A stretch of DNA of 64,000 nt from an uncultured delta proteobacterium (lineage in GTDB: Bacteria; Myxococcota_A; Polyangia; Polyangiales; Houyiibacteriaceae). The position numbers and the translations under genes were made by a program. Below, one piece after another: positions 9,253 to 58,228 of this stretch. Numbering within the stretch: position 1 is the stretch's first letter; every line of letters starts with the position of its first letter. A model generated the notes under the pieces. It saw only the letters and a program-made list of their open reading frames with translations. It was not told the DNA's origin and searched no databases. The DNA lies in NCBI GenBank assembly GCA_963699755.1, contig CAVOVB010000003.1, positions 96,001-160,000 on the forward strand, given 5' to 3'.

Positions 9253-10233
9253 ATGAAGTACCCCATCCTCAAGTCAGTCGTTGTGCTCTGCCTTGCCCCT
9301 TTGCTGGCCCACTGCGCGAGCGTTCAGAACGACGTTTGCCCTGCCGGGGAACAGTTGGCCTCGAGCGGCGATACCTGCGAGCCGATCGAATGCAACGGGG
9401 GCGAGCTCGAGGGAGATCTGTGTGTCTGTCCAGGAGAACAGGTCCTCGACGAAGTGACCTGCAGAGATCCGAACGACCCCTGCATTGGCCTTGGATGCAA
9501 TGATGGCAACGGCTGTACCGCGGACAACTGCAACCAGGGCGCCTGCTCGTTCGATGCAGTGCCCGACGGCGAGCCTTGTAGTTTCGGAGATGTCTCCGGC
9601 GTTTGTCTAGCGGGCGCCTGCGACGACGACCCCTGCGCAAGCATCGACTGCGACGACGGAAACCAGTGCACGATCAACGCCACTTGCAACCCCAGCAATG
9701 CACGGTGCGAGGGCGTTCGAGACGCGGCCGATGGCACAGCTTGCGACTTCGGCGAGCTTCCTGGCACCTGCGTATCTGGAAGGTGCGAGGACGCGATGCT
9801 CTGTGCAGGCAAGGATTGCAATGATGACAATCCATGCACCGAAGATGTTTGCGACCGCTTCACTGGAGAGTGCGCGAACCCTGGCCTGGTGGAGCTGACC
9901 CCATGTGAGCTGGAGGGAGTGACCGGAGAATGCATGTCTGCAGTCTGCGTGGGGCTTTGCGAGGATGCGGCCACGCGATGCGATGACCGTAGCGCGTGCA
10001 CGACGGACAGCTGTGATCCGGAGACCGGTTGCGTGAACACCGACAACTGCAACGACGGCAACTCGTGCACGGAAGACGTTTGCACGTCGCCAGCCACTGG
10101 CGCTTGTGTGAACAACATCAGGCCAAACGGAACCAAATGCGCCATCTCTGGCTCCGTCCTGCTTCTTGGCGAGTGCCAGAACGGTGTCTGCAGGAGCATC
10201 ATCATCATCGATCCTCCGCCGATCTTTCCCTGA
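9253..10233 (+). CDS. Cys-rich repeat lipoprotein (CxDGNxCTxDxC repeats), mature N-terminus C-ASV
   Basis: LLAH-C-ASVQ; repeats CNDGNGCTADNC, CDDGNQCT, CNDDNPCTEDVC and CNDGNSCTEDVC. Confidence 0.8.
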   Translation: MKYPILKSVVVLCLAPLLAHCASVQNDVCPAGEQLASSGDTCEPIECNGGELEGDLCVCPGEQVLDEVTCRDPNDPCIGLGCNDGNGCTADNCNQGACSFDAVPDGEPCSFGDVSGVCLAGACDDDPCASIDCDDGNQCTINATCNPSNARCEGVRDAADGTACDFGELPGTCVSGRCEDAMLCAGKDCNDDNPCTEDVCDRFTGECANPGLVELTPCELEGVTGECMSAVCVGLCEDAATRCDDRSACTTDSCDPETGCVNTDNCNDGNSCTEDVCTSPATGACVNNIRPNGTKCAISGSVLLLGECQNGVCRSIIIIDPPPIFP

Positions 10234-10274
10234 GTCAATGGCTTCTGCGTGAGGCTCCGGCGCCTGCCGGGCAG

Positions 10275-11663
10275 CTAGTTCGACTCGATCGCGCCGATGT
10301 CTGGGCCGGCGCCGCTTGGGCGAGGGTCGCCGTTGAAATCGACCTCAGGCGCCACCGCGACCTCGCCCGCGTCGATTGCTGGAGAGCCCTCGCTTAGCGT
10401 ATAGTCGCCCGCCCCGGCGTTGGTGAACATCGGATCACCGATGATGTTCCCAGGACCTGTCGACGTGATGTCGACGTCCGACAAGTTGTTCTTCGTGTCC
10501 GTACAGCCAATCAAGGTCTGGTCGTCGCCACTGGCCGGAAACTGGTTTCCAAAGATGATGTTGCTACTGACGACCGTGTCCAATGCGCATCCGATGATGC
10601 CGATGAAGTTCTCATTGACGGAGTTCCCGACGATCGTGTTGTAGCTGATCGTGGTGGTCGCCCCACTGTTCACCCGAATCGCGCCTTGGTATTCGCCAAG
10701 GTTGCTGTTGCCGATGATCAGATTGTTGCGGATGAGGCCCCCGCCGCTGATTCCGCCCCCGAAATTGCCGGCTATCGTGCTGCGCTCGATGACGGCAGCG
10801 GCGTCGAACGTCACGATCCCGAGGCCGCCGTTGTCGGACACGTTCGACTCGGTCACTGTGAGGTTCGAGCAACTGATGCCGTCCCCATCGTTGCGGTTGA
10901 ACGAGCTCCGGTGGACCGTGATTCGGCCGCTGCTGTCGCAGCTGAGGCCCCTGCCGGTCGATAGGTTGGTCACAGTCAGGCCATCGATCACGACATCGTC
11001 GTTGCCGGTAATCAAAACGCCGGGCTCGGTGCCGCTCGCAGCAGTGAGGTTGAGCGTGGCGCCTTCCCCAACCACGGTGACCGCCTTGTTCGCAATGGCG
11101 AGGCGCTGCATGTACTGACCGGGCAAGAGGCGGAGGTACGGCTTGGTGCCGCCGACGAGATTCACGGCGTCGGGCAAGAACGAGCAGGGGAACGAGCGGT
11201 TGCACATGCTGCCGCTTCCACTTGGCGATGCGTAGACCACGGACGCTTCTGCCACACAGGCGCCGGTCCCGATGTCGCACACCTCCGAGTCGCATTCGCT
11301 GTGCAGGTCGCAAGCCCGGCAGAGCAGGCTAGCCGCATCGCAGACCGGGGAGTTGGGCTCGTTGCAGTCATTGTTGTCGAAACACTCGACGCACCGGCCG
11401 GTCTCCGCGCAAATCGGAAACGATGAGTCCTTGGCGATACATTCGGTCGCACTCACACACGTTCGACACTCACCCTCGACACCACAGATCGGCGTAGACA
11501 CGCTGCATTCGGCATCGGACGTGCAATCGCCTCCGTTCGTCCCGCCGGAACCCCCTGAGCCACCCGGGTTCACCGCTTGCACCTCGGCACAGCCCATCGG
11601 GCTAGTCAGGACCAGGGCGAGCGCCGCGCAAGTCCATAGCCGAGGGACAGACACCATCTTCAT
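10275..11663 (-). CDS. Lipoprotein: Cys-rich repeats + right-handed beta-helix + choice-of-anchor Q-like C-terminus; mature N-terminus C-AEV
   Basis: PMG-C-AEVQAVNPGGSGG; Asn/Gly-rich beta-helix repeats; GSPAIDAG..D..G.PR..GPDIGAIE; GAGG RBS before ATG 11663. Confidence 0.8.
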   Translation of the reverse strand: MKMVSVPRLWTCAALALVLTSPMGCAEVQAVNPGGSGGSGGTNGGDCTSDAECSVSTPICGVEGECRTCVSATECIAKDSSFPICAETGRCVECFDNNDCNEPNSPVCDAASLLCRACDLHSECDSEVCDIGTGACVAEASVVYASPSGSGSMCNRSFPCSFLPDAVNLVGGTKPYLRLLPGQYMQRLAIANKAVTVVGEGATLNLTAASGTEPGVLITGNDDVVIDGLTVTNLSTGRGLSCDSSGRITVHRSSFNRNDGDGISCSNLTVTESNVSDNGGLGIVTFDAAAVIERSTIAGNFGGGISGGGLIRNNLIIGNSNLGEYQGAIRVNSGATTTISYNTIVGNSVNENFIGIIGCALDTVVSSNIIFGNQFPASGDDQTLIGCTDTKNNLSDVDITSTGPGNIIGDPMFTNAGAGDYTLSEGSPAIDAGEVAVAPEVDFNGDPRPSGAGPDIGAIESN

Positions 11664-15024: not shown

Positions 15025-16380
15025 TTACTGAGGCTGCACCTCGAACGCTCCCACGTCGCACATCGATGTTTCTCCTGCAGGGCGCCGTCTTCCACGCTGG
15101 TCGGTCGTGAGCGGTGCTCCATCCGCATCGACACACACCGATTCCGCGATTCGGTCGATGGCCTCACTGCCGGCGAGAAGCGCATGAGTCTTTGTGAGCC
15201 CCCCGTTGTTCGCTAGCTCTCCAAGTGCCAAGGCGGTCGTGCTCACGTCGAACCGATCGCCCTTGGCACCATCCAGGCCACAGGTGTTGCGAGGGCTCTC
15301 GATATTGCCGCCGCCCGAGGTCACACGGCCTGCCCCGGTACATGCAGTGTAAATCTCGTCGTCCCGGGCGACGATCAAGCTATTCGACACGATCAGAAGT
15401 GCGTTCTCCTTGATGTCAATCGTCGAGAAACCGACTCCCATGGCTACCGTGGAATTGATCAAGGTCAACGTCCCGCTGGACTGCGTGATTGCCGAGTTGT
15501 TCGACGCGTTGTTCCCCGAAACCGTGCTGTTTATCAGGGTCGCCGTCCCAACATTGAACACGCCAGCGCTCTGCGAGCTGTTCTCGGTAACCGCGCTGGT
15601 GATCATGATCATCGTCCCGTAGTTGCTGATCGCATGTGGGCTAGACCCGCCGTTGCTCGACACGGCGGTGTCGATCAAGGTCAACTCACCTGTGCTGTAG
15701 ATGCCGCTGCCGTCTGCGTTGTCGACGCCGCCGTTCTCCGAGACCCTGCTTCGGTTCAACGTCAATGCACCGGTGGTGTAGATGCCAGCTCCGAGGTAGG
15801 CGCTGCTGTCCCGCACGGTGCTGTCGGTCAGGATCAACGTCCCGTCGCTGAAGATACCGCCTCCTTTTTCGTCTTCCTCCACAAGACCACCCGCGATCGT
15901 GATCTGGTGCAGTTCCACCGTGACGCCTAGCGCAACAGAAAACACCCGATGGGCGCTGCCGGCATCCACGATGAAATCGCCCAGGCCGTAGATCTTGACG
16001 TCGTTGCCGATGACGATCTCCTGGGTTGTCATCACTGGGTCGGAACCGACGCAGTTGATGGCATAGGGGCCCCCACCTGCATCAATGGCCTGGACGAGGG
16101 CAGCCTCGGTGCAGGGTACGAGCTCGGCGCACTCGCCTCCTTTGCACACGCCATCGGTGCACGGCTCGTCATCGCTAAGCGGCGTGAACTCGCACACACT
16201 GTCCGCTGTGCAGTTGTTCTCGGTGCACTCGTTGCCGTCATCGCAACTCTCGTCGCTGTCGCACTCGGGTCCCCCGCCGACTCCACCAGAGCCACCCCCG
16301 TTCGCAATGACATTGGCACATCCGACCACGCCCAGTGAGGACAAGGCCACAAGACATACGAATCTAACCAGGTAGTGCAT
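15025..16380 (-). CDS. Lipoprotein: Cys-rich repeat + beta-helix + choice-of-anchor Q domain; mature N-terminus C-ANV
   Basis: VVG-C-ANVIANGGGSGG; CDDGNECTENNC; GGGIF/GAGIY repeats; LGELANNGGLTKTHALLAGSEAID..DQRG..CDVGAFE. Confidence 0.85.
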   Translation of the reverse strand: MHYLVRFVCLVALSSLGVVGCANVIANGGGSGGVGGGPECDSDESCDDGNECTENNCTADSVCEFTPLSDDEPCTDGVCKGGECAELVPCTEAALVQAIDAGGGPYAINCVGSDPVMTTQEIVIGNDVKIYGLGDFIVDAGSAHRVFSVALGVTVELHQITIAGGLVEEDEKGGGIFSDGTLILTDSTVRDSSAYLGAGIYTTGALTLNRSRVSENGGVDNADGSGIYSTGELTLIDTAVSSNGGSSPHAISNYGTMIMITSAVTENSSQSAGVFNVGTATLINSTVSGNNASNNSAITQSSGTLTLINSTVAMGVGFSTIDIKENALLIVSNSLIVARDDEIYTACTGAGRVTSGGGNIESPRNTCGLDGAKGDRFDVSTTALALGELANNGGLTKTHALLAGSEAIDRIAESVCVDADGAPLTTDQRGRRRPAGETSMCDVGAFEVQPQ

Positions 16381-17432: not shown

Positions 17433-18098
17433 TTGAACCTCCACGCCGCGTGCGCTTTGGTGCTCGCCTTGTTGCTGAGTAGTTGCGCAAATGTCGAACA
17501 GCCCGCAGGCAGCGGAGGGATCGGCGGGAACGGCAGCGGCGGGTCGGGCGGCGCCGGCGGTACAGCTGGGGCCGGCGGTTCGGCGCAAGCGTGCGGTTCT
17601 CCGTCCGCTGCTTTTGCGGTGTGTGGATCCATCACAAGTCAGGCTCCGCCTGATGGTTCTCGCGTGCTCGTCATTTGGGCCGTCGAGCCCTCGGGGTACA
17701 AGTTTGGAGAGGGGACAACATCGGGTGACCAGTACGTCGTCGAGTTCGAGTCCGCTCCGTCCGCGGAGGCCCTGTTCAACGGGATTCTCGGCATTGGCAT
17801 CGTTCTGGTCGTACCCCCCGAACTAGGCGATCTTCCCGATGGCCCGCTCGAGCAAGGCTTGGACCCCTTGAGCGAGAATTGGACCGCGCTTGGAATGACC
17901 GACGCCATCATCTATCGGACCAGTGGATCGTTAGGAGACTGGGATCTCGCCTTCCCGCCAAACGACTACGCCTGCGGGGCATGCATATTCCTCGAACAAG
18001 GCTTCGATGAGTTCGCGCCTTTCAGTTGCGAAGATGGGTTGGATCTCCAGGGCTCCTCAAATCCGGGCGATCTGGTGTACATGTGCAACTTCACCTAA
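17433..18098 (+). CDS. Lipoprotein of unknown function with Gly-rich tether; mature N-terminus C-ANV
   Basis: LLLSS-C-ANVEQPAGSGGIGGNGSGG; TTG start. Confidence 0.75.
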   Translation: MNLHAACALVLALLLSSCANVEQPAGSGGIGGNGSGGSGGAGGTAGAGGSAQACGSPSAAFAVCGSITSQAPPDGSRVLVIWAVEPSGYKFGEGTTSGDQYVVEFESAPSAEALFNGILGIGIVLVVPPELGDLPDGPLEQGLDPLSENWTALGMTDAIIYRTSGSLGDWDLAFPPNDYACGACIFLEQGFDEFAPFSCEDGLDLQGSSNPGDLVYMCNFT

Positions 18099-18465: not shown

Positions 18466-19215
18466 CTATTTGCCGTGCTCCCAATCGTCGATCTTCACCT
18501 CGATCGGAGTGCTGTCCGCGATTTCACCCAGGATTCGCCGCAGCGCAGCGAGATTGGAGCCTCCAAGACGGAAGAAGAACAAGCCTTTGTCTGTCGCGTT
18601 TGGGGGCATCGTGCAGACTAGCGTTGTGTCTCTAGTCTCCATCACTTTGCAGTAGCGCTGCGAAGCAACTGGAGGTGTGAACCCGAGACTTGCTAAGGCA
18701 GCATCCAGCTGGCTGGAAACGGTGTCTTCATTTCCGCGAAATTCGCCTTCGCAATAATGAGAGGCAGCGACCACGCTGAAGACGAGCGCCGCCGAATAGG
18801 CGATCTCTTCACGCAGCGTCTCGAACAACGGATCAGCCTCGGTATCGTCCAGCGGTCCCACGAGCACCAAAGCATCATCACGGACAGGTTTGTCGAGGTC
18901 GTAGTACCGCGCCGTCGGCGCAAACTCGTCGTCAGACGCCGCGATCAGAAAGAGCCCCGGGGGCGTCTCGACTTGGCTCTCATGGGCTTCCATCACTTGT
19001 CGCAGGTTGAAGCCGTCGAGCATCGTGTCTAGCGGACCGAGATCGTGACCCATCGTGCGCAGGAACCATAGATAGAAGCCTGGCAGTCGCCCACCTGACA
19101 GTCGGTCTAGTCGCTGAATCTCGTCTTCGCTGGCGCCCACGCACCGACGCGGAAAGCCGGGCACCACGCGACTCAGGAACGCTTGAATTTCGCCCTCTGG
19201 ATCTTGCAATGACAT
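18466..19215 (-). CDS. SMI1/KNR4 (SUKH) family immunity protein
   Basis: GASEDEIQRLDRLSGGRLPGFYLWFLRTMG; directly downstream of the toxin gene. Confidence 0.8.
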   Translation of the reverse strand: MSLQDPEGEIQAFLSRVVPGFPRRCVGASEDEIQRLDRLSGGRLPGFYLWFLRTMGHDLGPLDTMLDGFNLRQVMEAHESQVETPPGLFLIAASDDEFAPTARYYDLDKPVRDDALVLVGPLDDTEADPLFETLREEIAYSAALVFSVVAASHYCEGEFRGNEDTVSSQLDAALASLGFTPPVASQRYCKVMETRDTTLVCTMPPNATDKGLFFFRLGGSNLAALRRILGEIADSTPIEVKIDDWEHGK

Positions 19216-19245
19216 CTCTGTTCTCCGCGCTTACCGATTGAGTCC

Positions 19246-20433
19246 TTAGCATTTTCCACATGTGACCTTCGCGCTCGCTGGCGTATCCTCGCATTCCTTC
19301 TCAAGCTGGTTGCACATCATGGCGGTGAGCATCGCCTGGCAGGTCGCGCAAGGCGGCACAGCCTTCTCTCCTCCGAAGGATTCTAGCTCCGCCTCGGAAA
19401 GGCTTCCGTCCTCGAGCACTCTTCGGACCGCGATGTTTTGCACGACACCTGGACTACACTTGCCCTTGGCGAGCCGCTCCGTCATCGCCTTGGGCCTGCA
19501 TCCGTGGTCGATGGTAAGTAACATGGCCTGTTGTGCCGCGCAGGTGCCTGGGAGGTTCCTCGATTCGCCTGGTTTGCCCTTCTTCTTCCAATCGTCATAG
19601 GCCCTCGTCATCTTGTCATACACGCTGCCTATCCCGGTGGCGAGCCTCTCTGTGGCGAATCGGAGTTTCCTGGCGTCTGAACGGGCCTTTGGCATGCCCT
19701 TCCCCTCGTCGTAGTGGTGATAGTCCTTGAGCTTCGCACGAAGAGCTTTCTGCTGCTTGTTCGATTGAGCGAAGTATATGTCGGAACACGTCTTGCACTC
19801 GACAGCGCCCAGCATGCCATACGCTCTTTTCTCAGCCTCGGTCTCGAGTTTCATCTCGGCGACGGCCGACTGCACGGAGCTGCACGCGCTCTTCGTCGCA
19901 CCGCTCTCCTTGAGCTGCGCGTCTTCCTGGTTCTCCACCCGGTCTTTGTGCGCCTTGTCGCAGATCGGACATTTCTCATCGCCCCACAATGCCACGAGAT
20001 CTGGTCCCTGTATGACGCCCTGAAGCGTAGCCGAGTTCGGCGGGTTCCCACTCGGCCCGCAGTTGTTGAGCATTGGGTCGCTGAGGAGTTGGACGTTCTT
20101 GCCCTCGATCTTCACGTCCAGCGCACCCGGCCCTACGAACTTGGTGGGTCCGTGCGTGTTCGACGACACGATGCCGCCGCCTGTTCCCTTCGAAGCGATG
20201 TCGCCTTGGCTCGCAAACGTCGCCCCCTTGATCGCAACCGGCTTCCCCTGGATCTTCACCTTCTTCGAGTACCCCTTCGGACTGAGGCTGCTTCGGCCGA
20301 TGTTCGGCAGTGGCGTGGGGACGAACGGCGCGGGTGGTCCGGGCATCTTGCAGACGTTCGGAACCGTCGCAGCAGCAATACCGTTGCTTCCTTTCGTCAC
20401 GGGCGTTTTGGGGGGGTTGATCGCGACACTCAT
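19246..20433 (-). CDS. PAAR-like DUF4150 spike protein with C-terminal deaminase-like toxin domain
   Basis: PNVCKMPGPPAPFVPTPLPN..DVKIEGKNVQLLSDPMLNN; C-terminal GTCAAQ...PPCATCQ. Confidence 0.85.
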   Translation of the reverse strand: MSVAINPPKTPVTKGSNGIAAATVPNVCKMPGPPAPFVPTPLPNIGRSSLSPKGYSKKVKIQGKPVAIKGATFASQGDIASKGTGGGIVSSNTHGPTKFVGPGALDVKIEGKNVQLLSDPMLNNCGPSGNPPNSATLQGVIQGPDLVALWGDEKCPICDKAHKDRVENQEDAQLKESGATKSACSSVQSAVAEMKLETEAEKRAYGMLGAVECKTCSDIYFAQSNKQQKALRAKLKDYHHYDEGKGMPKARSDARKLRFATERLATGIGSVYDKMTRAYDDWKKKGKPGESRNLPGTCAAQQAMLLTIDHGCRPKAMTERLAKGKCSPGVVQNIAVRRVLEDGSLSEAELESFGGEKAVPPCATCQAMLTAMMCNQLEKECEDTPASAKVTCGKC

Positions 20434-20446
20434 CTTAAATCACCTT

Positions 20447-21493: not shown

Positions 21494-21521
21494 ACCCGCC
21501 TCCGGTGGTCAGGTCCCATGC

Positions 21522-22526: not shown

Positions 22527-22536
22527 AACGACGCCC

Positions 22537-24410: not shown

Positions 24411-24438
24411 CGTTTCCTCGTCTCACGTTGTCGCTCGT

Positions 24439-24642
24439 TTACACGAAGTGGATCACCACGTCCCAGACCTTGGGCCCCAACCAGAAACCCGCGATCGTCA
24501 TTCCGCCCGCGAGCGCCCAGATCACGGAGTCGCTCAGACCCCAGGCGTTGAACCAGTGCGCCGCAAAGTAGGTCCCCACGCCGCCGATCAGGGCGCCCAG
24601 GATGCGGACGATTGGACTCGTATTCTTGTCCTCTGAGCTCAT
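24439..24642 (-). CDS. Small two-TM membrane protein
   Basis: 67 aa with two hydrophobic segments; co-oriented and tightly packed after vgrG. Confidence 0.6.
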   Translation of the reverse strand: MSSEDKNTSPIVRILGALIGGVGTYFAAHWFNAWGLSDSVIWALAGGMTIAGFWLGPKVWDVVIHFV

Positions 24643-24654
24643 TTTATCTCGCCG

Positions 24655-42333: not shown

Positions 42334-42340
42334 CTCGACT

Positions 42341-43546: not shown

Positions 43547-43603
43547 CGTGAAGTACACTCCTCGGAGGCAGTCGGGTACAGGCCGCCCGGTAGAGACTAT
43601 CGC

Positions 43604-45247: not shown

Positions 45248-45249
45248 TT

Positions 45250-47570: not shown

Positions 47571-47584
47571 GGTCGGTCGGGAGC

Positions 47585-50206
47585 TTACACCGAGTCGACG
47601 TTTACGCGAAACGAGCCGTCGTCGCCCAGAGAGATGTCGACGCCTCCGACCTTGCCCCCCTTGGACATGACCGAGAGCAGCTCCTTGGCCAGCAGCGGAG
47701 TCAGGCTCCCCCGCATGATGTGATCAACGTTGCGGGCGCCGGTTTCGACCTCCGTGCAGCGCTTGGCGATCTCGTCGATGACTTCGTCGGACACCGTCGG
47801 GCGCACGCCATGGCCCTGCTCGATTCGGTCCCCGAGCTTGTTCAGCTTCAGCGTCGTGATCGATCGTAGCGTGTCTGGATCGAGAGGCCGGAATGCGACC
47901 ACCGTCATGCGACCGACCAGCGCCGGCTTGAAGTGGAGGTTGAGCTCTGGCCGAATGGCCGAGACGACGTCCTCCGGATTCACTTCCTCGTCCGTATCGT
48001 AGATCTGCATGATGCTATCGGTGGCGAGGTTGCTCGTCATGATGATCAAGGTGTTGCGGAAGTTGATCTGACGGCCTTCGCCATCGTTGCAAAAACCCTT
48101 GTCGAAAATCTGATAGAACAGATTCATCACTTGCGGGTCCGCCTTTTCGCATTCGTCCAGGAGCACGACCGAATAGGGACGCTGCCGGACGGCTTCGGTG
48201 AGCAGGCCGCCTTCGCCGTAGCCCACGTATCCCGGTGGTGATCCGATGAGCCGAGAAACCGTGTGCTTCTCGGTGAACTCGGTCATGTTGATCGTCGTGA
48301 CAAAGCGCTCGTGGCCGTAAAGGAAGTCGGTCAATGCGAGCGCGGTCTCCGTCTTGCCGACACCGCTGGGCCCGACGAACAGCATGACACCAATCGGGCT
48401 GTTCGGATCGCCGATGCCGGCATACGATGAACGCACCGCTTCAGCGACGGCAGCGAGGCCGTGATCTTGCCCCTTCACCCGCTCACGAAGGCGGTCTTCG
48501 AGCTCGACGACAACCGGAAGATTGCCGCGTTGCATCTTGCCGAGAGGGACACCCGTCCACGAGGAGACCGTTCGCGCCACCGCCTCTGCCGTCACGTCGA
48601 CGCTGATCAGCGCCTCATCCTCGGTGCGGCCCGTGTCGGTCGTGTCGGGGGCTGCCTCCGATGTTGCCGCATCGGTGTTGCCCTCTTCGAGCTCCTTTCG
48701 GCGTTGAAGAAGCGCGGTCACCTCTTCGCGTTCCTTCTTCCAGCGTTCCGCCAGGGCATCGCGCTCGCCACGGGTGGCGTTGAGCTTCTCCTCTGTCGAA
48801 GTGATTCGAGCTTCGAGGTCTGCGTATCCCTGGCTTTGATCCCGATTCACCGCGGCGAGCTCACGCTCGAGCGCGGCCACTTCTTCGTCGAGCTCGACCA
48901 AGCCTTCGGGCCTTGCCTCGTATTCGACACGGACTCGCGCCGAAGTCGTATCGATCAGATCGACAGCCTTGTCGGGAAGCTGCCGGCCGGAGATGTACCG
49001 ATGCGAGAGCTCCGCAGCAGCGGTCACGGCTTCGTCGAGGATACGAACACCATGGGCTTTTTCGTAGATGCTCTTGAGCCCACGTAGCATCACCGACGTG
49101 TCGTCCGTCGACGGCTCGTCGACCTTCACCGGTTGGAAACGGCGTTCGAGAGCCGCGTCCTTTTCGAAGTACTTCTTGTACTCGGACCAGGTGGTTGCCG
49201 CGACCGTGCGAAGCTCTCCTCGTGCGAGCGCTGGCTTGAGGAGGTTGGCCGCGTCTGACCCTCCTGCCGCGCCTCCTGCGCCGATGAGCGTATGCGCCTC
49301 GTCGATGAAGAGAATCGTCGGTTTTTCGGATCCTTTGATCTCCTCCAGGACGCCCTTGAGGCGGTTCTCGAACTCACCCCGGACGCTCGCGCCGGCTTGA
49401 AGAAGCCCAAGGTCGAGCCCGTAGAGCTCTGCATTTCTGAGATTCTCGGGCACATTGCCGCTTACGATTTGCAGCGCCAGGCCCTCCACCAATGCGGTCT
49501 TTCCGACGCCAGGCTCGCCGACGATGATCGGATTGTTTTTCCGGCGCCTGCACAGGATGTCGATGGCTTGGCGGATCTCTCGGTGCCTCCCAAAAATCGG
49601 GTCGATCTTGCCCGCCCGCGCCTTCTCGGTGAAGTTCTCGCAGAATCGGTCGATCGCGCCCCCTCCACCTACCGCAGCTCGCTTTGTCCCCGCGGGCGTC
49701 TTGCCGATCGGCTCGGCTTCAGGCGCTTCCTTCGAGAGGGAAAGGAGCTCGACGATTTCTTTGCCGAGGGCCTCTGCCGAAATCGCTCGGAGCTCGGGAA
49801 CCTTGGTGGCGAGATAGCGGTCGGGTTCGCGGATCAATTGATAGAGCAGCATTCCGGTGCGAATCGAAGTCTCGCCGTGCTCGACACTTGCCGTGATCCA
49901 GGTGTCTTCCAGCCAGCGAAAGAGAATCGGCGAAAATACGGGACGGGCGGTCGAGCCCGTCGGCGCTCGTCCGAGAGCATCGCGGAGACGTCGGAGAAGC
50001 GACTCCCGATTTTGCGCATACTGGTGCAAGATACCCGACGCTTCTCCGTCGGGATCGGACAGCATCTGTTCCAGCATGTGCTCGACAGTCGCTTCGGCAT
50101 GTTGGGAAGATGCCGCGCGCCCCACGGCAGCGTTGAGCATGCGCTGGGCGGTCGGGGTCATGATTTGAACGAGTCTGGCTGGATCTGTTCGCACAGGGGC
50201 CTCCAA
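47585..50206 (-). CDS. tssH: T6SS ATPase ClpV
   Basis: Two AAA modules GEPGVGKT and [16 protein letters not shown] and GARNVD. Confidence 0.97.
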
Positions 50207-50212
50207 TGTTGT

Positions 50213-51238
50213 TCATACGAGGGATCGATTGATCCCCGAGATTCTTCCTACGTCCCGCATGATCAGGACCTCGTTCCCGTGAAAGCCGGCGAGGTGCGCC
50301 GCGCCCAGTCGCGAGAAGCCAATTCTCATCGTTTGTGCTGCGCTCTCATGCAGCTCCAGCTCGACGTCGTACTCGAGCGGATCACGGAGAACGAGGCTAA
50401 CGGCTGCTCGCAATCGATCCAATAGAAGCTGACCCTCGGCAAATAGGTCGGCTTGCTCACGCGTCAGGATGCCGAGGCGAATCGCAAACCTCCCGCGCCG
50501 GTCGTATACGCGACGACCCAAGACCGTGAGCTCTCCGAGTGCATGATTTCGCGTCCCCAGCCGGGTATATTGGTCCTCGTCGACCATCAGCCACTGGCCG
50601 GCGAGCTCGCGAATTCGTACCTCGAGGTCAGGGAGCTCGTCGCGGAGAACCGCCAACACAGCCACCCGCAACGCCGCAGCACCCCGGGCACGTTTCGCCA
50701 GGATCGGGATGAGAACCATCAGGTGCCGTGCTTGAAGCGCTAGGTCTGGATCCGGGTGGACACCGGCCAAGCCGAGAAGGCGGAGAAGCCAGGGATCGGA
50801 TGCGTCGGAACGATGTTCCCGCGCGGGATTGAGTCGATTGACGGACCGGTACAGGAGCGAGACCGCGCGGTGATGGAACAGATCGAGGAAGTCGCGTTGG
50901 GTACCCTGCTCGAACGTGTCGACCAACACGCCCTCGGCGATGTACGGCGGGAGCGGCGATGCTGTCCCCGATAGGCCCAAGAACGTCGTCAGCACTTCGA
51001 AGCGGCGAGGGTCTTCCGCGATCTCCACGCTTCGAACATCGGCCGAGTGGAATCCCAAATCGGGGTCGTGCCGGAAGCGAATGCCTTCTCGATTCGGAGG
51101 CCCCTCGCCGCCGAGCGCGCTGGCGCCCACCGTCACACGCTCGAGAAAAGACACCAACCCGAAGAACGAGCGCGGCGCAGCAGCGCGGTACTCCTCCCAG
51201 GTCAAAGCAGTGGCTGGGTTCCTGTCTCTGGCTTCCAT
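50213..51238 (-). CDS. tssG: T6SS baseplate TssG
   Basis: FLGLSGTASPLP and DFLDLFHHR; start overlaps the tssF 3' end. Confidence 0.94.
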   Translation of the reverse strand: MEARDRNPATALTWEEYRAAAPRSFFGLVSFLERVTVGASALGGEGPPNREGIRFRHDPDLGFHSADVRSVEIAEDPRRFEVLTTFLGLSGTASPLPPYIAEGVLVDTFEQGTQRDFLDLFHHRAVSLLYRSVNRLNPAREHRSDASDPWLLRLLGLAGVHPDPDLALQARHLMVLIPILAKRARGAAALRVAVLAVLRDELPDLEVRIRELAGQWLMVDEDQYTRLGTRNHALGELTVLGRRVYDRRGRFAIRLGILTREQADLFAEGQLLLDRLRAAVSLVLRDPLEYDVELELHESAAQTMRIGFSRLGAAHLAGFHGNEVLIMRDVGRISGINRSLV

Positions 51239-52938
51239 CCGATGCTCTTGTTGGAGGGGTAAAGGTTGATGGTGAGTCTTTGAAAGCAATTGATCGGGCT
51301 CTCCGACGTCAACAGGCGTTGGAGAGCGCATCCGAAAAGATAGGCGTCACCGATTTCAGCGAAGCCAGTTTCATCCAGCTCCACCTCGGTGTGGAGCCCG
51401 ACCATTGGAACCCTTTCGAACACCCGGCGCTCGCGGGTTGCGCGCACGCTCCGAATTGCCGCAATCCTGAGTCGATTTGCCTCGTAGAGCTGCTGGTCGG
51501 TTTCCTCGTGGACGTTGTAGAGGGTAAGCAGCGAGCTTAGGACATTGGCGTGGGCGAGGCTCCTGGTGTTGAGCGCCAGGTGAGACACCAATCGCCAGTG
51601 CTTTTCGGCGCCGATGGGAGGGCGAGTCGGCCTGGTGACACGCGTGATGTTTCGGAAGCTGGCGACCGTGGGCGAGCCGGATGTTGGCTGACAGATGTCG
51701 CCCGGCCGCAGCTCCGAAGGCAACTGCCGGTTGGTGCAGCTGAGCTCGCTCGAGAGCACACGTTCTTCGAGATCCGGCGGGACATCGGACGGCGTGAGGA
51801 CTGAGAGATAGGCATCTATCGCGTTGTCGATCGGAGAACGGTCTCGTCTCACGCTATAGTACCGCTGCGCGTTACGGGGCCTATTCAAATGAGAGAAGGC
51901 GAAAAAGGGGTCGTACGTGATTCGCCTCGAACCACGCTGGTCGATCCCGGTGACCGAGTTGACGCTGTAGATCTCCGTATGATGTGGGTCTCGGTTCAAT
52001 GCTCTGAGCAGGTACTCGTGCTCTCTCGAGCTCTGCTTGATCGGCGCGCCATCGGCTTCGAAGAGATTGACCACGGGGGTGCAATGAGGCTGGAACAGGT
52101 CTGAGGTCAGGCGCTCGGGCAACTTTGGCGGATCGCGGAAGTGGAAGACCAGATCGAAGTTTTCCCCAAGTACTCCCTCCGGCAACTTCAGGAAGCCGGG
52201 AACGTCGACGAAGAGAAGCTTCGCCGGCATGGTGAAGTACTCCTGTAGAAGGCAGAGGCCTTCGGGCACCGTGTCGGGCCAAGGAAGAAGCCGAAAGCCT
52301 GCGCCCACGCCGGGTAGCTCGACCTTGTTCGCAAGAGGATACGCGTGACCTCGCGTCTCGAGCTCGGCCGCGGTCAGGTATTCGGCCAGCCAGAAGAAGA
52401 CGGTCGACGCAAGCCCAAGCGGGCCATCCAAAAATAGCCGAAGGCGTCCGTGTTCAGGCCATTTGGGCTCGCTCTCCGCCCGGAAGCGCAACCGAATTTT
52501 CGGCCGGCTCTCGGTCGAGGGGTCCATCGTGGCGCCTTCGAGGCGCATGGGGAGAAGGTCGACCGGCGCGATCGTACGAAACGTGCACTGTGTCCCCTGG
52601 ACGGCGCGACTGGCCAGCTCCGTTCCCGACGCGACCTGGTAGTGCCCACGGATCGCCGCTGCATTCGCCGAGAACTGGACGGTGGAGCAGGCGGGCACCT
52701 GCCGAAAGAGCTGAGGGACGGTGAGCTGTCCGAGCGAGTCGATGACCTCAGGTAGGGCGTCATCGGCCCGCTCCCGGATTCGGGCGGTCAGAAATGCGAA
52801 ACCTTCGAGAAGCCGCTCGACTTCCGGGTCTCCCTCTCGATCGGCAAGCGCCCTCGTCAACGTGGGATTGGCGCGAGCGAACTCTCGGCCGAGCTCGCGG
52901 AGATAGGTCAATTCGCTCTGGTAGTACTTGCTGAACAT
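51202..52938 (-). CDS. tssF: T6SS baseplate TssF
   Basis: YYQSELTYLRELGREFA, DPEVERLLEGFAFLTARI, CTPVVNLF and WRLVSHLALN. Confidence 0.97.
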   Translation of the reverse strand: MFSKYYQSELTYLRELGREFARANPTLTRALADREGDPEVERLLEGFAFLTARIRERADDALPEVIDSLGQLTVPQLFRQVPACSTVQFSANAAAIRGHYQVASGTELASRAVQGTQCTFRTIAPVDLLPMRLEGATMDPSTESRPKIRLRFRAESEPKWPEHGRLRLFLDGPLGLASTVFFWLAEYLTAAELETRGHAYPLANKVELPGVGAGFRLLPWPDTVPEGLCLLQEYFTMPAKLLFVDVPGFLKLPEGVLGENFDLVFHFRDPPKLPERLTSDLFQPHCTPVVNLFEADGAPIKQSSREHEYLLRALNRDPHHTEIYSVNSVTGIDQRGSRRITYDPFFAFSHLNRPRNAQRYYSVRRDRSPIDNAIDAYLSVLTPSDVPPDLEERVLSSELSCTNRQLPSELRPGDICQPTSGSPTVASFRNITRVTRPTRPPIGAEKHWRLVSHLALNTRSLAHANVLSSLLTLYNVHEETDQQLYEANRLRIAAIRSVRATRERRVFERVPMVGLHTEVELDETGFAEIGDAYLFGCALQRLLTSESPINCFQRLTINLYPSNKSIGWKPETGTQPLL

Positions 52939-52939
52939 C

Positions 52940-53317
52940 TCAGCGGCTCACCTTGAAGCGGTTCCCCGGCTGTAACGCGGTCCGCACGTGGAACGGGGTC
53001 TTGTCGGCATCGGTGAGACGCGCCGACACATCGAAGTAGAGAACGAACGGGTCATCGGAAGGGAAGAATCGCACCTTCACTTTGGAGAGCCTCGGCTCGT
53101 ACTTGAGGATGACGTCGCGAATCGCGTTCTGAAGTGCATGCAAGCCGTCCGGAAGCATGTGCACGATGTCGGTCAGGTCAGGCAACCCGTAGTCCGGGTG
53201 CGTCACGGAGAGGCCTTCGCGCGTGTTGAGCAAGATCTGTAGATGCTCCGCGATCGACTGCGTCTCGTCCACGCTTCGTCGATCGGTCCCGAGCCTTCGC
53301 AAGAAACGTTCGCTCAT
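52940..53317 (-). CDS. tssE: T6SS baseplate TssE (gp25-like)
   Basis: HLQILLNTREG, DYGLPD and YEPRL. Confidence 0.95.
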   Translation of the reverse strand: MSERFLRRLGTDRRSVDETQSIAEHLQILLNTREGLSVTHPDYGLPDLTDIVHMLPDGLHALQNAIRDVILKYEPRLSKVKVRFFPSDDPFVLYFDVSARLTDADKTPFHVRTALQPGNRFKVSR

Positions 53318-54906
53318 CGCGCCCGCTTCTCGCTTCCTTCGTGCGGTTTGATGTCCAACGTGGCCATCCGGCTGATCAGGCTAGTCCGTGAGATACTAAG
53401 CTCCCTGGCCGTCTGGGCCACCACGCCTTCGCATTTCAGGAGGGCGTCCCGGATGATCTCACGTTCGATCGCATCGAGATCGGTGCGCCGTTCTGCCAGT
53501 TGTTCCCAGCGCTCCCGGACCGCGTACGCAGGGGGAGTGCCGCTCGGCTCGGCGCTCTGTGTTGCGGGAGCGCTCGGAAGGACCGCACGCGAGGCCTTCC
53601 GTGGAGGAAGGTCGAGGTGACGCGCTTCGATGAGCTCAGCTTCCTCATTCGCCGCACCGGCCCTGTTCTTCGCACGCTCGAGCACCGCTTCCAGCTCACG
53701 AATATTTCCGGCCCACTCGAGGTGAGGCGCTTTGAGCAGGGCGAGAGCGTCTCCGTCCAAAGCCCAATCCCTACGCGGATCTGTCCTCGTCAGGTAGCGA
53801 ATCGCGATGTCGGGGATGTCAGCTCGGCGTTCCCGCAATGGCGGAAGAGTCAGCGGCACGGTCGCCAGTCGGAAGTACAAATCCTGCCGGAATCGGGTGT
53901 CCGCAATCGCCCTGCCGATGTCTCCATTCGTGACCGAGATGAGACGAAGCTCCGCCTTCTTCGGATCGAGGCCCTGGTAGCCAAGTGGCCGGTACGTGCC
54001 GAACTGCGTGAAGTCGAGAAGCAGCTGTTGGGCATGAGGCGACAAATTGAGAACTTCGTCGAGGATGAGCGTGCCCTTGTCGGCGTACTCGACCAGGCCT
54101 TTTCGCTTCGAAACGGCACCGGAGAACGCGCCTCGCTCGTGACCGAATAGTTCCGAGGCGATCGTGTTCAGGTCGTCGCTGAATCCCAGCGTCGCCCGGA
54201 CGATCGGCGCACGATTGCTCGCGCGCGCGATCGCAGTCGCGAGCTGCGTCTTGCCTGTTCCCGATTCGCCGAGAATCATGATCGATGCATTGCTTCGAAT
54301 CGCGGCGCGCACTTCATCTCGAAGCGCCCGCATGCTCCTCGGTGCGAGGAGCTCATCGAGATCCAGATACGTCGAAGGATCCTGCCGCGCTTGCTGTTCC
54401 CGCAGATGCTCTTGGGCCTTTTCGACCAGTGCTTGTTGGGCCGTCATGGCGCCAAGCAAGGTGGCGACGTACTCGAGAAACTCCAGCACCGCGCTGCGGG
54501 TTCCCTGATCATCCGGAAAATCCAAGTAGATCGCGGCGACGAGTCGCCGATTCCCTCGCGGGGTCGTTGGGGGTGCCCAGAGCGGAATCGCCGCGAAGGA
54601 TCCGGTGTCGGCATAGGGGACAGGGCCGGCGATCGTTCGGCGTCGGTCCTCCACCTCGCTTAGGACAGTGGTGACGTGCGCTGCAAGAATGGCGGGGGGG
54701 ACGGCGTGGAAGCTGCTCGTCCGAGCATGATGGATCGACCCGCTTCCTTTGGACTCGAACGTGCTCCAAGCCGAGGTTGCGCCCAGCACCACACACAGGG
54801 CGTCGAGGGTTTCCTCGATCAGGCGGGCGTTCTGAAGGCCGCTGACGAGAGCCGCGACCACCGCGCGCATCCGCGGCCACGGATATGTTTCGTCCACCAT
54901 CGGCAT
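53314..54906 (-). CDS. sigma-54-dependent activator (GAF-like + AAA + Fis HTH), VasH/Sfa-like
   Basis: GESGTGKT, ELFGHERGAFSGA, LILDEV, FRQDLYFRL, GNIRELE and HTH; ATGA-coupled to tssE. Confidence 0.93.
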   Translation of the reverse strand: MPMVDETYPWPRMRAVVAALVSGLQNARLIEETLDALCVVLGATSAWSTFESKGSGSIHHARTSSFHAVPPAILAAHVTTVLSEVEDRRRTIAGPVPYADTGSFAAIPLWAPPTTPRGNRRLVAAIYLDFPDDQGTRSAVLEFLEYVATLLGAMTAQQALVEKAQEHLREQQARQDPSTYLDLDELLAPRSMRALRDEVRAAIRSNASIMILGESGTGKTQLATAIARASNRAPIVRATLGFSDDLNTIASELFGHERGAFSGAVSKRKGLVEYADKGTLILDEVLNLSPHAQQLLLDFTQFGTYRPLGYQGLDPKKAELRLISVTNGDIGRAIADTRFRQDLYFRLATVPLTLPPLRERRADIPDIAIRYLTRTDPRRDWALDGDALALLKAPHLEWAGNIRELEAVLERAKNRAGAANEEAELIEARHLDLPPRKASRAVLPSAPATQSAEPSGTPPAYAVRERWEQLAERRTDLDAIEREIIRDALLKCEGVVAQTARELSISRTSLISRMATLDIKPHEGSEKRAR

Positions 54907-55040: not shown

Positions 55041-55757
55041 ATGAGTAGCTCGTCCCGACTCCAACTCCCAGTGACCCTGCTGCTTGCGCTCTTGGCCAGT
55101 GCTTGTGCGGACGTTCAGCCGTCTGCACCCATCGGCTGCGCCAACAACTTCGATTGCGAACCGACCGACTATTGTGTGGCTGAGACCTGCGGTGGACCTG
55201 GCACCTGCCTGGCGCGGCCGGCCGACTGCTCCCCGAACGTGAGCTTCGTTTGCGGCTGTGACGGTGTGACCTACGACAACGCATGCGAGGCGAGCAGAGC
55301 CGGCGCTCGCATTGCCAACGTCGGGGAATGCGTCTGCGACACCAACGAAGATTGCAACGAAAGCGACTACTGTGACGGCGAGAGCTGCGAAGGCGCCGGC
55401 ACCTGTGAAGCCAAGCCTACGGACTGCCCGGCGGTGTTTGATCCGGTCTGTGGTTGCGACGGTGTGAACTACGACAGCGAGTGTCTCGCGGAGTCGTTGG
55501 GGGTACGGATCGAGTCAGCGGGACCTTGCCCCTGTGCCCCGGACGCGGTCGATTGCTGTGACACCAACGACGACTGCCTTGCGACTGAGTACTGTGCAGC
55601 CGAGATCTGCGCTGGCCCGGGGAATTGCGAGATTCGGCCGACGGTCTGCCCTCTGGTCCTAGCCCCCGTGTGCGGCTGCGACGGCGGAACCTACAGCAAC
55701 TCATGCGTCGCAGCGACGGCTGGTGTAAGGGTGAGCTTCTCCGGGGAATGCCCATAG
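55041..55757 (+). CDS. Lipoprotein with three Kazal-like repeats; mature N-terminus C-ADV
   Basis: ASA-C-ADVQ; VCGCDGxxYxxxC three times. Confidence 0.85.
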   Translation: MSSSSRLQLPVTLLLALLASACADVQPSAPIGCANNFDCEPTDYCVAETCGGPGTCLARPADCSPNVSFVCGCDGVTYDNACEASRAGARIANVGECVCDTNEDCNESDYCDGESCEGAGTCEAKPTDCPAVFDPVCGCDGVNYDSECLAESLGVRIESAGPCPCAPDAVDCCDTNDDCLATEYCAAEICAGPGNCEIRPTVCPLVLAPVCGCDGGTYSNSCVAATAGVRVSFSGECP

Positions 55758-56066: not shown

Positions 56067-56104
56067 TCCGCTTCTGATGTTACAGCATCGTCGGGAGGTG
56101 ACTA

Positions 56105-58228
56105 ATGCGTCTGACTCTGAAATTGCGCTTGGTGCTGGGGCTGGTGGCCGTTGTATTTGTGGCGGCTGGGGGGTGTGCGGATGTGACTCCTGCTGTAGGG
56201 TCCGGCGGTAGTGGAGGTGCCACGGGCAGTGGCGGCGGTGCTGGTAGCGGAGGGATCGACTGTTTCAACGCCTTGTGCGATCCGATCGGCGACCGCTGTT
56301 GCCCTGCGGCGTGTATGCCAGGCAATGACTTCGATTGCTGCGAAGCCGCTACCTGCAGCACCGTGTCCGACGCTTGTTGCTCAAGTACTTGTGCGGAAGC
56401 CGACGACGTCGACTGCTGTGACGAAGCTGCGTGCAGCAACAGTTCCGACGGCTGCTGTCCGGCGACGTGCACCCCCGCGAATGACGTGGACTGCTGTGAC
56501 ACCCCTTGCAGCCAGGCTGCCGATGGGTGCTGCGGGAACATGTGCACGTCGGCCAACGACGCGGATTGCTGCGCAGTAGCTACCTGCGATCCGACGCCAG
56601 ATGGCTGCTGCTCGGACGCTTGCACGGCAGCCAACGATCAAGATTGCTGCAGCATCGTCGCATGCAACAACGACTTCTCTGACAATTGTTGCCCAGACGC
56701 TTGTGCTCCAACCGAAGACATCGATTGTTTCAACGCGCCCGATTCGATTGTTGTCACGCCGAGCGACCCCTCGATTGCTTTGGGGGAAACTCAGCAGTTC
56801 ACCGCAACGGCTGTCTACGGCGGTAGCCCCGTAGAGATCACTGCCTACGCGCTATGGTCTTCTTCCAACGAGGGTGTCGCTACCGTAAGCAACAATGGGC
56901 TGGTCACGAGCGTCCTTTCAGGAACCACGACCATCTCAGCGGGCATCCCAGGCGCATCCAGCGCGCCCGTCGGATCGACCACTCTGCGCGTCACCGATGC
57001 CGAGCTCCGGTCGATCTCCATCGTTCCAGTGGACCCGTCGATCACGCTCGGGACAAAGCAACAATTCACGGCGACTGGCACGTACACCGATGGAGGCCAG
57101 GTGGACCTTACCACTCAGGTGCAGTGGAGCTCTTCGGTCCCGACCGTGGCGACGGTAAGTGATGCGCCCGGGAGCGACGGGTTGGCAACGAGTATCACGG
57201 TAGGCCGAACAACGATCACGGCCACAGATACCGCGTCCGCCATCCTCGGAGAGAGCGATTTGGACGTGACAGGACCCACGACGAACCGCGCCTATGTTGC
57301 AAACTCGAGCGACGGGTCCGTCTCAGTTATCGACATCGTAGATGGGAAGGTCATCGATACGATTACTGTAAACACTGGGCCGTTTGCCATGGCGGCGCAT
57401 CCCACAGCGAATCTCGTGTACGTGACTCACAACCAACTCGACATCGTCTCAGTAATCGACACGACGACCAACCAGGTGCTCACCACCGTCAATGTCGGCG
57501 ACAACCCTTATGATGTCGCTGTCAATGACGTTCGGAACAAGGCCTACATTGCGAATCCTGGCGCCTGGGGTTCCGGTGATGACACGGTGACGATCATCAA
57601 CACGACGAATCAGCAAGTGATCAAAACCGTGGTCGTGGGACAAGACCCGGCCGCGGTTGATGTGACCGACCACGGGAATTCCACGGGAGCATTTGTCGCC
57701 CTCAGGGGTCAGGTGAAAGTGATTGATGTTGCCACTGATAACGTGTCCCATACCATCCCGCTTCCCGCGGGAACGACAGGCACCGCATGCCCGTCGGGCG
57801 TCGCCTATCAGCGAGCAACTTACATCATGCGGGTCTTGCACAACATCTGTAACGCGCCGCTCAGCGCAAAGCCCTATATCAACGACGTCGTGTCGACGAC
57901 CAAGGCCGTCGACACCACATACCGAATCGAATCTGCCGGCGCGGGCACCGATGTGACGGTCAATCCGGGAGTCGGCGGATGGACCTATGTGACGCATGCA
58001 AGTCAAAACACGCTTTCGGTCACCGAGTACGTCTTCGATACCTTGGAAGCGGAGGTTCCCGTGGGCGAGTTCCCCACGAAGGTTCAGTTCGTAGGGCCGC
58101 CCCACAACAAAGTGCTGGTGTCGAACTGCACTAGTGGAGACGTCTCGGTCGTGGATGTAGCCACCAATACCGTTACTAAGACCATTGATGTCGGTGGCTG
58201 CCCGCGTGGAATCGCCGTGATTCCTTAG
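56105..58228 (+). CDS. Surface lipoprotein: vicinal-Cys repeats + two Big_2 Ig-like domains + YVTN/YncE beta-propeller; mature N-terminus C-ADV
   Basis: AGG-C-ADVTPAVGSGG; QQFTAT..WSSS..VATVS twice; AYVANS..VSVID repeats; GGAGG RBS. Confidence 0.88.
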   Translation: MRLTLKLRLVLGLVAVVFVAAGGCADVTPAVGSGGSGGATGSGGGAGSGGIDCFNALCDPIGDRCCPAACMPGNDFDCCEAATCSTVSDACCSSTCAEADDVDCCDEAACSNSSDGCCPATCTPANDVDCCDTPCSQAADGCCGNMCTSANDADCCAVATCDPTPDGCCSDACTAANDQDCCSIVACNNDFSDNCCPDACAPTEDIDCFNAPDSIVVTPSDPSIALGETQQFTATAVYGGSPVEITAYALWSSSNEGVATVSNNGLVTSVLSGTTTISAGIPGASSAPVGSTTLRVTDAELRSISIVPVDPSITLGTKQQFTATGTYTDGGQVDLTTQVQWSSSVPTVATVSDAPGSDGLATSITVGRTTITATDTASAILGESDLDVTGPTTNRAYVANSSDGSVSVIDIVDGKVIDTITVNTGPFAMAAHPTANLVYVTHNQLDIVSVIDTTTNQVLTTVNVGDNPYDVAVNDVRNKAYIANPGAWGSGDDTVTIINTTNQQVIKTVVVGQDPAAVDVTDHGNSTGAFVALRGQVKVIDVATDNVSHTIPLPAGTTGTACPSGVAYQRATYIMRVLHNICNAPLSAKPYINDVVSTTKAVDTTYRIESAGAGTDVTVNPGVGGWTYVTHASQNTLSVTEYVFDTLEAEVPVGEFPTKVQFVGPPHNKVLVSNCTSGDVSVVDVATNTVTKTIDVGGCPRGIAVIP

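What the first reader, a model, noticed from the sequence alone, without database searches (positions are those of the whole stretch)
9253..58228. Eight unrelated lipoproteins share a C-[AS]-[DENS]-V tag right after the lipidated Cys: candidate new sorting or docking signal
Seen: the mature N-termini are C-ASVQ (9253), C-AEVQ (11663), C-ANVI (16380), C-ANVE (17433), C-ADVS (28836), C-SDVV (29620), C-ADVQ (55041) and C-ADVT (56105). Six continue into a Gly-rich tether. Their cargo domains differ: CxDGNxCT repeats, beta-helix/choice-of-anchor Q, Kazal, Ig plus beta-propeller, MopE-like and unknown. The four other lipoproteins here lack the motif (C-TKK 3495, C-NKS TssJ, C-SSN 46182, C-KGS 63615). 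Known: residues just after the Cys steer lipoprotein sorting (the Lol +2 rule; the Bacteroidota surface export signal). Inference: this is a modular, polymorphic set of surface sensors or adhesins that all dock on one partner or export route, and it clusters around the T6SS. I know of no description of this tag.
Basis: partly seen in the sequence, partly recalled or inferred. Interest (0 to 1): 0.85.

Follow-up and report, generated by a model that had tools for sequence, protein, structure and literature searches.

The report
Valine-4 tag on myxobacterial lipoproteins
Eight predicted lipid-anchored proteins encoded around a bacterial injection system all carry a valine three residues after their anchor cysteine; the valine, but not the full four-letter tag, recurs in relatives and is likely part of a wider myxobacterial sorting or docking cue rather than a signal specific to the injection system.

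Summary
All eight tags are at the stated genes. C-[AS]-[DENS]-V occurs in 8 of 12 predicted lipoproteins in the window and 2 of 520 elsewhere in the genome. The cluster survives a post-hoc permutation test (1 of 1000 after merging the one clearly duplicated pair) but not if all four neighbour pairs are merged.

The strict tag is over-fitted. Six of 6 full-length orthologues keep Val at +4, but only 2 of 6 keep the strict motif. Among distant homologues of one cargo, tethered forms have V/I/L at +4 in 22 of 34; the strict motif occurs in 0 of 109.

It is not a T6SS tag: only 1 of 8 lipoproteins flanking close relatives' T6SS loci has it. Same-cargo paralogues in this genome lack it (0 of 11). 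A weak link to PEGA/TPR-kinase gene modules appears in three tests; a complex prediction gave no answer.

Best reading: a local, homogeneous case of a broader Myxococcota Cys-small-x-aliphatic N-terminus, likely a sorting or docking cue, on accessory adhesin-like lipoproteins collected in a variable island. The scan's earlier notes hold no record of this motif.

The parts
9253..10233 (+). Lipoprotein, tag CASV (9313-9324), Dicty-type CxDGNxCT repeats, His at -1 of the lipobox; divergent from the PEGA/TPR gene
   Evidence: orthologues CAGV, CASV, CTSV, CASV
10275..11663 (-). Lipoprotein, tag CAEV (11580-11591), Gly tether, Cys repeats, beta-helix and choice-of-anchor Q
   Evidence: closest homologue P0149 starts CARV
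15025..16380 (-). Lipoprotein, tag CANV (16309-16320), Gly tether, choice-of-anchor Q
   Evidence: three paralogues in the genome start CGET, CGDG, CTDD
17433..18098 (+). Lipoprotein, tag CANV (17484-17495), Gly tether, unassigned Myxococcota domain; start codon uncertain; flanked by short repeats
   Evidence: a paralogue with 85% identical cargo starts CSEE
27736..28836 (-). Lipoprotein, tag CADV (28765-28776), Gly tether, Cys-rich Myxococcota domain; lies in the hcp-tssJ gap
   Evidence: homologues CSDS, CGGS, CGDG, CAEV, CAEV
28901..29620 (-). Lipoprotein, tag CSDV (29549-29560), Gly tether, Dicty repeat; signal peptide homologous to that of 28836
55041..55757 (+). Lipoprotein, tag CADV (55104-55115), three Kazal domains
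   Evidence: four paralogues start CDTS, CGKE, CGSS, CGET
56105..58228 (+). Lipoprotein, tag CADV (56174-56185), Gly tether, Cys repeats, two Ig (Big_2) domains and a YVTN beta-propeller
   Evidence: full-length orthologue P0126 (60%) starts CVGV
29750..30426 (+). IS481 transposase fragment overlapping the C-terminal remnant of a choice-of-anchor Q protein, directly upstream of tssJ; likely a ninth lipoprotein that lost its start
   Evidence: 32% identical, E 4e-10, to the CSDV lipoprotein in the same slot of G073
7209..8957 (-). PEGA/TPR protein with four C-terminal hydrophobic helices and a terminal beta-hairpin ending G-x-F; candidate partner, binding untested
5133..7088 (-). Ser/Thr kinase downstream of the PEGA/TPR gene
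   Evidence: the same pairing recurs in relatives
53314..54906 (-). Sigma54-dependent activator heading tssE-F-G-clpV; paralogues sit in kinase-PEGA modules
18466..53317 (.). Type VI secretion cluster (PAAR-like protein, adaptors, vgrG, hcp, tssJKLM, tagF, tssABC, fha, clpV, tssGFE)

Best explanation
The eight genes are predicted accessory, cysteine-rich lipoproteins gathered in variable slots around a type VI secretion cluster, and their shared Val at +4 is likely a selected sorting or docking cue of a wider Myxococcota pattern, Cys-small-x-(V/L/I), not a T6SS-specific tag. Shown: the motif, its local enrichment, retention of Val+4 in close orthologues, the position-specific aliphatic +4 in tethered homologues, and the variability of the slots. 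Inferred: after lipidation and signal cleavage, the +2 to +4 residues next to the acyl chains would be read by envelope trafficking machinery or by the PEGA/TPR protein of the kinase-PEGA-sigma54 module. That would route these proteins differently from the genome's majority class (Asp/Ser/Gly/Glu at +4), probably to the outer membrane surface, where the Gly tether would display an adhesin or sensor domain. The unusual uniformity in this genome is partly due to local duplication (shown for 28836/29620) and partly unexplained.
For: Enrichment survives post-hoc correction: 0 of 300, and 1 of 1000 after merging the homologous pair. Codons vary synonymously and 27 of 28 signal-peptide pairs score like background. 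Six of 6 full-length orthologues, from three of the genes, keep Val+4 while +2 or +3 changed in 4 of 6. In 109 lipoprotein homologues of 11663 (of 150 hits, cluster representatives at 50% identity), tethered forms have V/I/L at +4 in 22 of 34, against 0, 5, 5 and 0 of 34 at +2, +3, +5 and +6, and 11 of 75 in untethered forms. Aliphatic +4 is commoner next to PEGA genes in three samples: 9 of 24 vs 2 of 22 families in the genus, 4 of 15 vs 43 of 505 in this genome at 1 kb, p 0.038, and 3 of 22 vs 0 of 29 in two other genera, p 0.074. Residues +2 to +7 steer lipoprotein sorting in E. coli, P. aeruginosa and M. xanthus (PMC3222651, passages).
Against: Same-cargo paralogues in this genome lack Val+4 (0 of 11), including one with 85% identical cargo. 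The three closest homologues of 28836 lack it. More distant 9253 homologues have it in 1 of 4, and the copy syntenic with the kinase-PEGA pair in G021 reads CADS. Most PEGA-neighbour lipoproteins lack an aliphatic +4, and the in-genome signal fades at 5 kb (p 0.16). Four of the six orthologues belong to one gene and are kin. Significance is lost if the four neighbour pairs are counted once each (81% of 300; 74% of 100 in a two-position version). The lipoprotein calls come from a home-made scan with false positives.
Confidence: 0.45

Rival explanations
1. Common descent without function: one or a few signal-plus-tether cassettes were duplicated and re-fused to different cargoes in this island, and Val+4 is a passenger.
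For: The tags come in four neighbour pairs (CA[SE]VQ, CANV, C[AS]DV, CADVxP). 28836/29620 share 34 of 60 signal-peptide bases. The G073 CSDV module scores as homologous to both (p 0.002-0.005) but carries another cargo. A CSDV start with His at -1 sits on two different cargoes. The hcp-tssJ gap is empty in L122 and L123 and filled differently in L124 and G073.
Against: The other 27 of 28 signal-peptide pairs are background-like, so neutral drift should also have erased +4. Neighbouring lipoproteins elsewhere in the genome share +2 to +4 no more than by chance: 1 of 199 pairs share all three, 0.5 expected. The +4 bias is position-specific in distant homologues.
Confidence: 0.25
2. Biophysical or processing preference: an aliphatic residue at +4 dips into the membrane interface or suits the lipid-transfer and cleavage enzymes when a disordered tether follows; no dedicated reader exists.
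For: The bias is strongest in tethered forms (22 of 34 vs 11 of 75) and tolerates V, L or I. The strict motif occurs sporadically on unrelated proteins such as a sulfatase-like protein.
Against: Cys-rich or tethered lipoproteins elsewhere in the same genome rarely use it (V/I/L in 9 of 183), and it would not explain clustering at one locus.
Confidence: 0.12
3. One reading: a T6SS-linked tag by which all eight dock on TssJ/TssM or another locus-encoded partner.
For: 8 of the 10 strict matches in the genome lie within 47 kb around the T6SS. G073 has a CSDV lipoprotein directly upstream of tssJ. T6SS-encoded contact lipoproteins exist (TasL, PMC9040878, abstract).
Against: 1 of 8 non-core lipoproteins flanking T6SS genes in G015, G021, G073, G084 and L124 has Val+4. 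The more distant T6SS loci fetched had no strict match. Strict matches occur in genomes where TssC was not found (G001, G003, G093, G096). Those loci are fragmentary, so flanks may be missing.
Confidence: 0.1
4. Chance: a post-hoc motif fitted to about four independent events.
For: With four pairs merged, 74-81% of permutations do as well.
Against: Only one pair is demonstrably homologous; with it merged, 1 of 1000 permutations reaches the score. Orthologues keep Val+4.
Confidence: 0.08

Closest known systems
N-terminal lipoprotein sorting rules: E. coli Asp+2, P. aeruginosa Lys+3/Ser+4, M. xanthus Lys+2 (inner membrane) and Ala+7 (FibA, extracellular matrix) (PMC3222651, passages)
   Same: Information lies in the first residues after the lipidated Cys; M. 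xanthus belongs to the same phylum.
   Different: None of these residues matches. Here the conserved feature is an aliphatic residue at +4 after a small +2, and no function has been tested.
Bacteroidota lipoprotein export signal, K-(D/E)2 or Q-A-(D/E)2 (PMC5080379, abstract)
   Same: A short N-terminal motif shared by unrelated cargoes that are thought to be surface-displayed.
   Different: That signal is charged and acidic and proven by reporter fusion. This one is aliphatic at +4, in another phylum, and unproven.
T6SS accessory lipoproteins TasL, TagM1, TagQ, TagV (PMC9040878, abstract; PMC13584744, passages)
   Same: Lipoproteins encoded with a T6SS; TasL is an adhesin-like contact factor.
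   Different: No sequence comparison with them was made here. The window's lipoproteins are not conserved across relatives' T6SS loci, and the passages read mention no shared N-terminal tag.
MYXO-CTERM / myxosortase (PMC11980579, search listing and start of abstract)
   Same: A Myxococcota sorting tag shared by many unrelated surface proteins.
   Different: It is C-terminal and processed by a protease. None of the eight hit such a model in NCBIfam.

Membership tests
Bacterial lipoprotein (signal peptidase II substrate) | Short n-region, hydrophobic h-region and lipobox Cys | tested here: met
   Own scan; three of eight are atypical (His at -1, polar h-region, uncertain start); SignalP6 not available
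Bacterial lipoprotein (signal peptidase II substrate) | Lipidation and cleavage at that Cys | not testable with these tools
   Needs labelling or mass spectrometry
E. coli Lol-avoidance (+2 rule) | Asp at +2 | tested here: not met
   0 of 8; Ala or Ser at +2
P. aeruginosa +3/+4 retention signal | Lys+3 Ser+4 | tested here: not met
   0 of 8
M. xanthus sorting signals | Lys+2 (inner membrane) or Ala+7 (extracellular matrix) | tested here: not met
   Lys+2 in 0 of 8; Ala+7 in 1 of 8, against 70 of 532 genome-wide
Bacteroidota lipoprotein export signal | K-(D/E)2 or Q-A-(D/E)2 near the Cys | tested here: not met
   Absent from the first ten mature residues of all 8 (read)
T6SS accessory contact lipoprotein (TasL-like) | Encoded in or beside the T6SS cluster | tested here: met
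T6SS accessory contact lipoprotein (TasL-like) | Conserved with the T6SS in relatives | tested here: inconclusive
   9253-like genes lie at the T6SS in G015 and L124, a Kazal homologue in L124, and a choice-of-anchor gene in G073; none in L122, L123 or the fetched G084 and G021 stretches; loci are fragmentary
T6SS accessory contact lipoprotein (TasL-like) | Needed for contact-dependent killing | not testable with these tools
   Uncultured organism
MYXO-CTERM proteins | C-terminal Cys motif, membrane helix and basic tail | tested here: not met
   No such NCBIfam hit for the eight; C-termini

The most novel reading that the evidence does not exclude
Cys-small-x-(V/L/I) is an undescribed Myxococcota lipoprotein export or docking signal read by the PEGA/TPR helix-plus-beta-hairpin protein family. 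It couples swappable surface sensors to a Ser/Thr kinase and sigma54 activator, and this genome has wired a whole set of such sensors to its T6SS for target recognition.
Probability: 0.15. Interest if true: 0.75.

Novelty: new variant of a known kind. Interest (0 to 1): 0.4.

Why it matters
A single-residue +4 cue would be directly testable in M. xanthus and would help predict localisation for hundreds of hypothetical proteins. A proven reader would give a function to the PEGA/TPR family found in 34 of 40 genomes of this genus. As it stands the evidence is comparative only, and the strong T6SS claim is not supported.

Tried and rejected
A DNA-level motif or shared upstream element: wobble positions differ and no repeat family links the eight starts.

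Genus-wide DNA pattern searches. The first was too loose to use. The second listed 150 matches, 15 were not shown, and it catches about half of lipoproteins. I judged the rows by eye and fetched 18 places; 6 were credible lipoproteins with the tag or its Lys variant. Listed matches showed no cluster of real tags outside G000, but many assemblies are fragmentary.

A locus-encoded LolA: two LolA matches, both on another contig.

Complex prediction of the PEGA/TPR protein with the first 50 mature residues of 9253: no answer, score 0.00, which is no evidence either way. TssJ/TssM were not modelled (one job only).

Fold search of the PEGA/TPR model: no match at E<=0.001. The model of the 17433 cargo had pLDDT 45 and was not searched; Atlas hits were under 0.9. 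The homologue search for 56105 was swamped by Ig repeats and gave one full-length orthologue among 120 listed.

No RNA holder listed. The N-terminal alignment A3 was built but not searched. Literature searches listed no paper on this tag; supplements were not read and subscription journals are missing.
Full report
Setting. The window lies on contig C3 of a 5.35 Mb genome in 11 contigs, 100% complete with 9% contamination. Records with the nearest TssM (76%) are titled Myxococcota, and more distant ones Polyangiales or Sandaracinaceae. The best sequencing-run holders are sediment metagenomes. Pfam and NCBIfam show a full T6SS between 18466 and 53317, a Ser/Thr kinase (5133-7088), a PEGA/TPR protein (7209-8957) and a sigma54 activator (53314-54906).

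The observation. All eight N-termini are as described. With a home-made lipobox scan, the strict motif is in 8 of 12 window lipoproteins and 2 of 520 elsewhere; Val+4 is in 8 of 12 and 20 of 520. Among Cys-rich or Gly-tethered lipoproteins outside the window, +4 is Asp, Ser, Gly or Glu in 123 of 183 and Val in 2 of 183. A permutation that allows any position, residue and run gave 0 of 300. The scan includes false positives, which inflate the background of hydrophobic +4 residues.

Independence. The tags fall into four neighbour pairs. Only 28836/29620 have homologous signal peptides (34 of 60 bases); the other 27 of 28 pairs are background-like. Merging that pair leaves 7 of 11, reached by 1 of 1000 permutations. 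Merging all four pairs removes significance (81% of 300; 74% of 100). Codons vary at wobble positions, so the motif is a protein feature. Neighbouring lipoproteins elsewhere in the genome do not share +2 to +4 above chance.

What is conserved. Full-length orthologues read CAGV, CASV, CTSV and CASV for 9253, CVGV for 56105 (60% identity) and CARV for 11663 (58%). Val+4 is kept in 6 of 6 and the strict motif in 2 of 6. Of 150 hits for 11663, 109 had a lipobox. None has the strict motif, Val is the commonest +4 residue (20 of 109), and among the 34 with a tether V/I/L occurs at +4 in 22, against 0, 5, 5 and 0 at +2, +3, +5 and +6. The real signature is therefore C-[GSA]-x-[VLI]. Against universality: 0 of 11 same-cargo paralogues in this genome have Val+4, including one 85% identical in cargo to 17433. 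The three closest homologues of 28836 lack it, while two distant ones elsewhere read CAEV. More distant 9253 homologues read CSDV, CAQS, CADS and CSSA. No close orthologue was found for 29620, 16380 or 55041 with an N-terminus, and none was sought beyond this genome and the fetched loci.

T6SS link. TssC was found in 3 of 54 other genomes of the genus, and G084 has most of the cluster without a TssC match. Non-core lipoproteins flanking these and metagenomic T6SS loci start CAQS, CGSG, CSDG, CGDG, CSDV, CGPA, CGSD and CSSA: 1 of 8 has Val+4. The hcp-tssJ gap is empty in L122 and L123 and holds different lipoproteins in L124 and G073. Here it holds two tagged genes, an IS481 fragment and a choice-of-anchor remnant homologous to the CSDV gene of G073. 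Strict matches also occur in genomes without a TssC match, on a sulfatase-like protein, large beta-propeller-like proteins and others (these cargo labels are my reading of the sequences, not a family scan). The island is a hot spot for accessory lipoproteins, but the tag does not follow the T6SS.

PEGA/TPR link. The 7209-8957 family is in 34 of 40 other genomes of the genus, often with the kinase and the sigma54 activator. I fetched 40 of the 91 places listed. Within 4 kb, 9 of 24 lipoprotein families include an aliphatic +4, against 2 of 22 farther away. In this genome outside the window it is 4 of 15 within 1 kb of a PEGA gene against 43 of 505 (p 0.038), fading to p 0.16 at 5 kb. In two other genera it is 3 of 22 against 0 of 29 (p 0.074). 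All three point the same way and all are weak. The model of the protein (pLDDT 88.9) shows an alpha/beta region, TPR-like helices, a PEGA domain, four C-terminal helices and a terminal beta-hairpin. The family ends in a G-x-F-like strand, which suggests outer-membrane insertion (inference from known Bam signals, recalled). An earlier scan note describes a comparable kinase-TPR-sigma54-lipoprotein cluster in Myxococcota; it is an unchecked lead.

Mechanism. Shown: motif, enrichment, conservation of Val+4, slot variability. Inferred: the residues next to the acyl chains act as a trafficking or docking cue that sets these proteins apart from the acidic or Ser/Gly +4 majority, and the tether displays adhesin or sensor domains at the surface. 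Confidence is 0.45. Descent of shuffled cassettes is 0.25, a biophysical preference 0.12, a T6SS-specific tag 0.10 and chance 0.08.

Comparison. The tag fails the defining residues of the E. coli, P. aeruginosa and M. xanthus rules (PMC3222651, passages) and of the Bacteroidota export signal (PMC5080379, abstract and outline). It would work like them but is none of them. TasL (PMC9040878, abstract and outline) and TagM1, TagQ and TagV (PMC13584744, passages) are functional analogues for T6SS-linked lipoproteins. PMC11784454 (passages) gave background only. Six literature searches listed no description of this tag; supplements were not read.

Verdict. The pattern is real and not chance in this genome, but it is narrower than its true consensus and not tied to the T6SS. 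It is a candidate new variant of N-terminal lipoprotein sorting cues, with comparative support only. Interest 0.4.

Noticed in passing
window 29750-30426: An IS481 fragment overlaps the C-terminal remnant of a choice-of-anchor Q protein just upstream of tssJ; the intact counterpart in G073 starts CSDV.
   Followed up: yes
window 7209-8957: PEGA/TPR protein family with four C-terminal hydrophobic helices and a terminal beta-hairpin ending G-x-F; no PDB fold match at E<=0.001; in 34 of 40 genomes of the genus, often with a Ser/Thr kinase and a sigma54 activator.
   Followed up: partly
window 9253-9312; G000 C10:259471; L051, L124, L132, L140, L163: A recurring atypical lipobox with His at -1 on Cys-rich accessory lipoproteins of this genus; 5 of 532 in G000, two of them doubtful.
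   Followed up: partly
window 17199-17327, 18323-18394, 14266-14290: Short direct and inverted repeats flank the 17433 gene; one contig of another study joins 16951 to 18329, skipping it (only 29 letters on the short side, so weak).
   Followed up: partly
window 4022-5098: A second, degenerate TssC (VipB)-like gene outside the main T6SS operons.
   Followed up: no
window 18466-24410: PAAR-like (Tox-PAAR) protein with an unassigned C-terminal domain and a downstream candidate immunity gene, behind DUF2169, PRK06147-like, TIGR02270 and DUF6484 genes.
   Followed up: no
window 12128-14220: A peptidoglycan-binding protein followed by two DUF922 genes, between motif lipoproteins.
   Followed up: no
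window 42341-46182: VanW-like gene, a kinase-like gene with a weak Pkinase hit and lipoprotein 46182 lie inside the T6SS and are conserved there in G015 and G021 (the first two also in G073).
   Followed up: partly
G000 C1:289366-296309: Another kinase-PEGA-sigma54 module whose neighbouring lipoproteins start CTSV and CTEL, a second small local cluster with aliphatic +4.
   Followed up: partly
G000 C1, C7, C8: Near-identical lipoproteins recur on different contigs (CTKVGPKS three times), in line with the 9% contamination figure.
   Followed up: no
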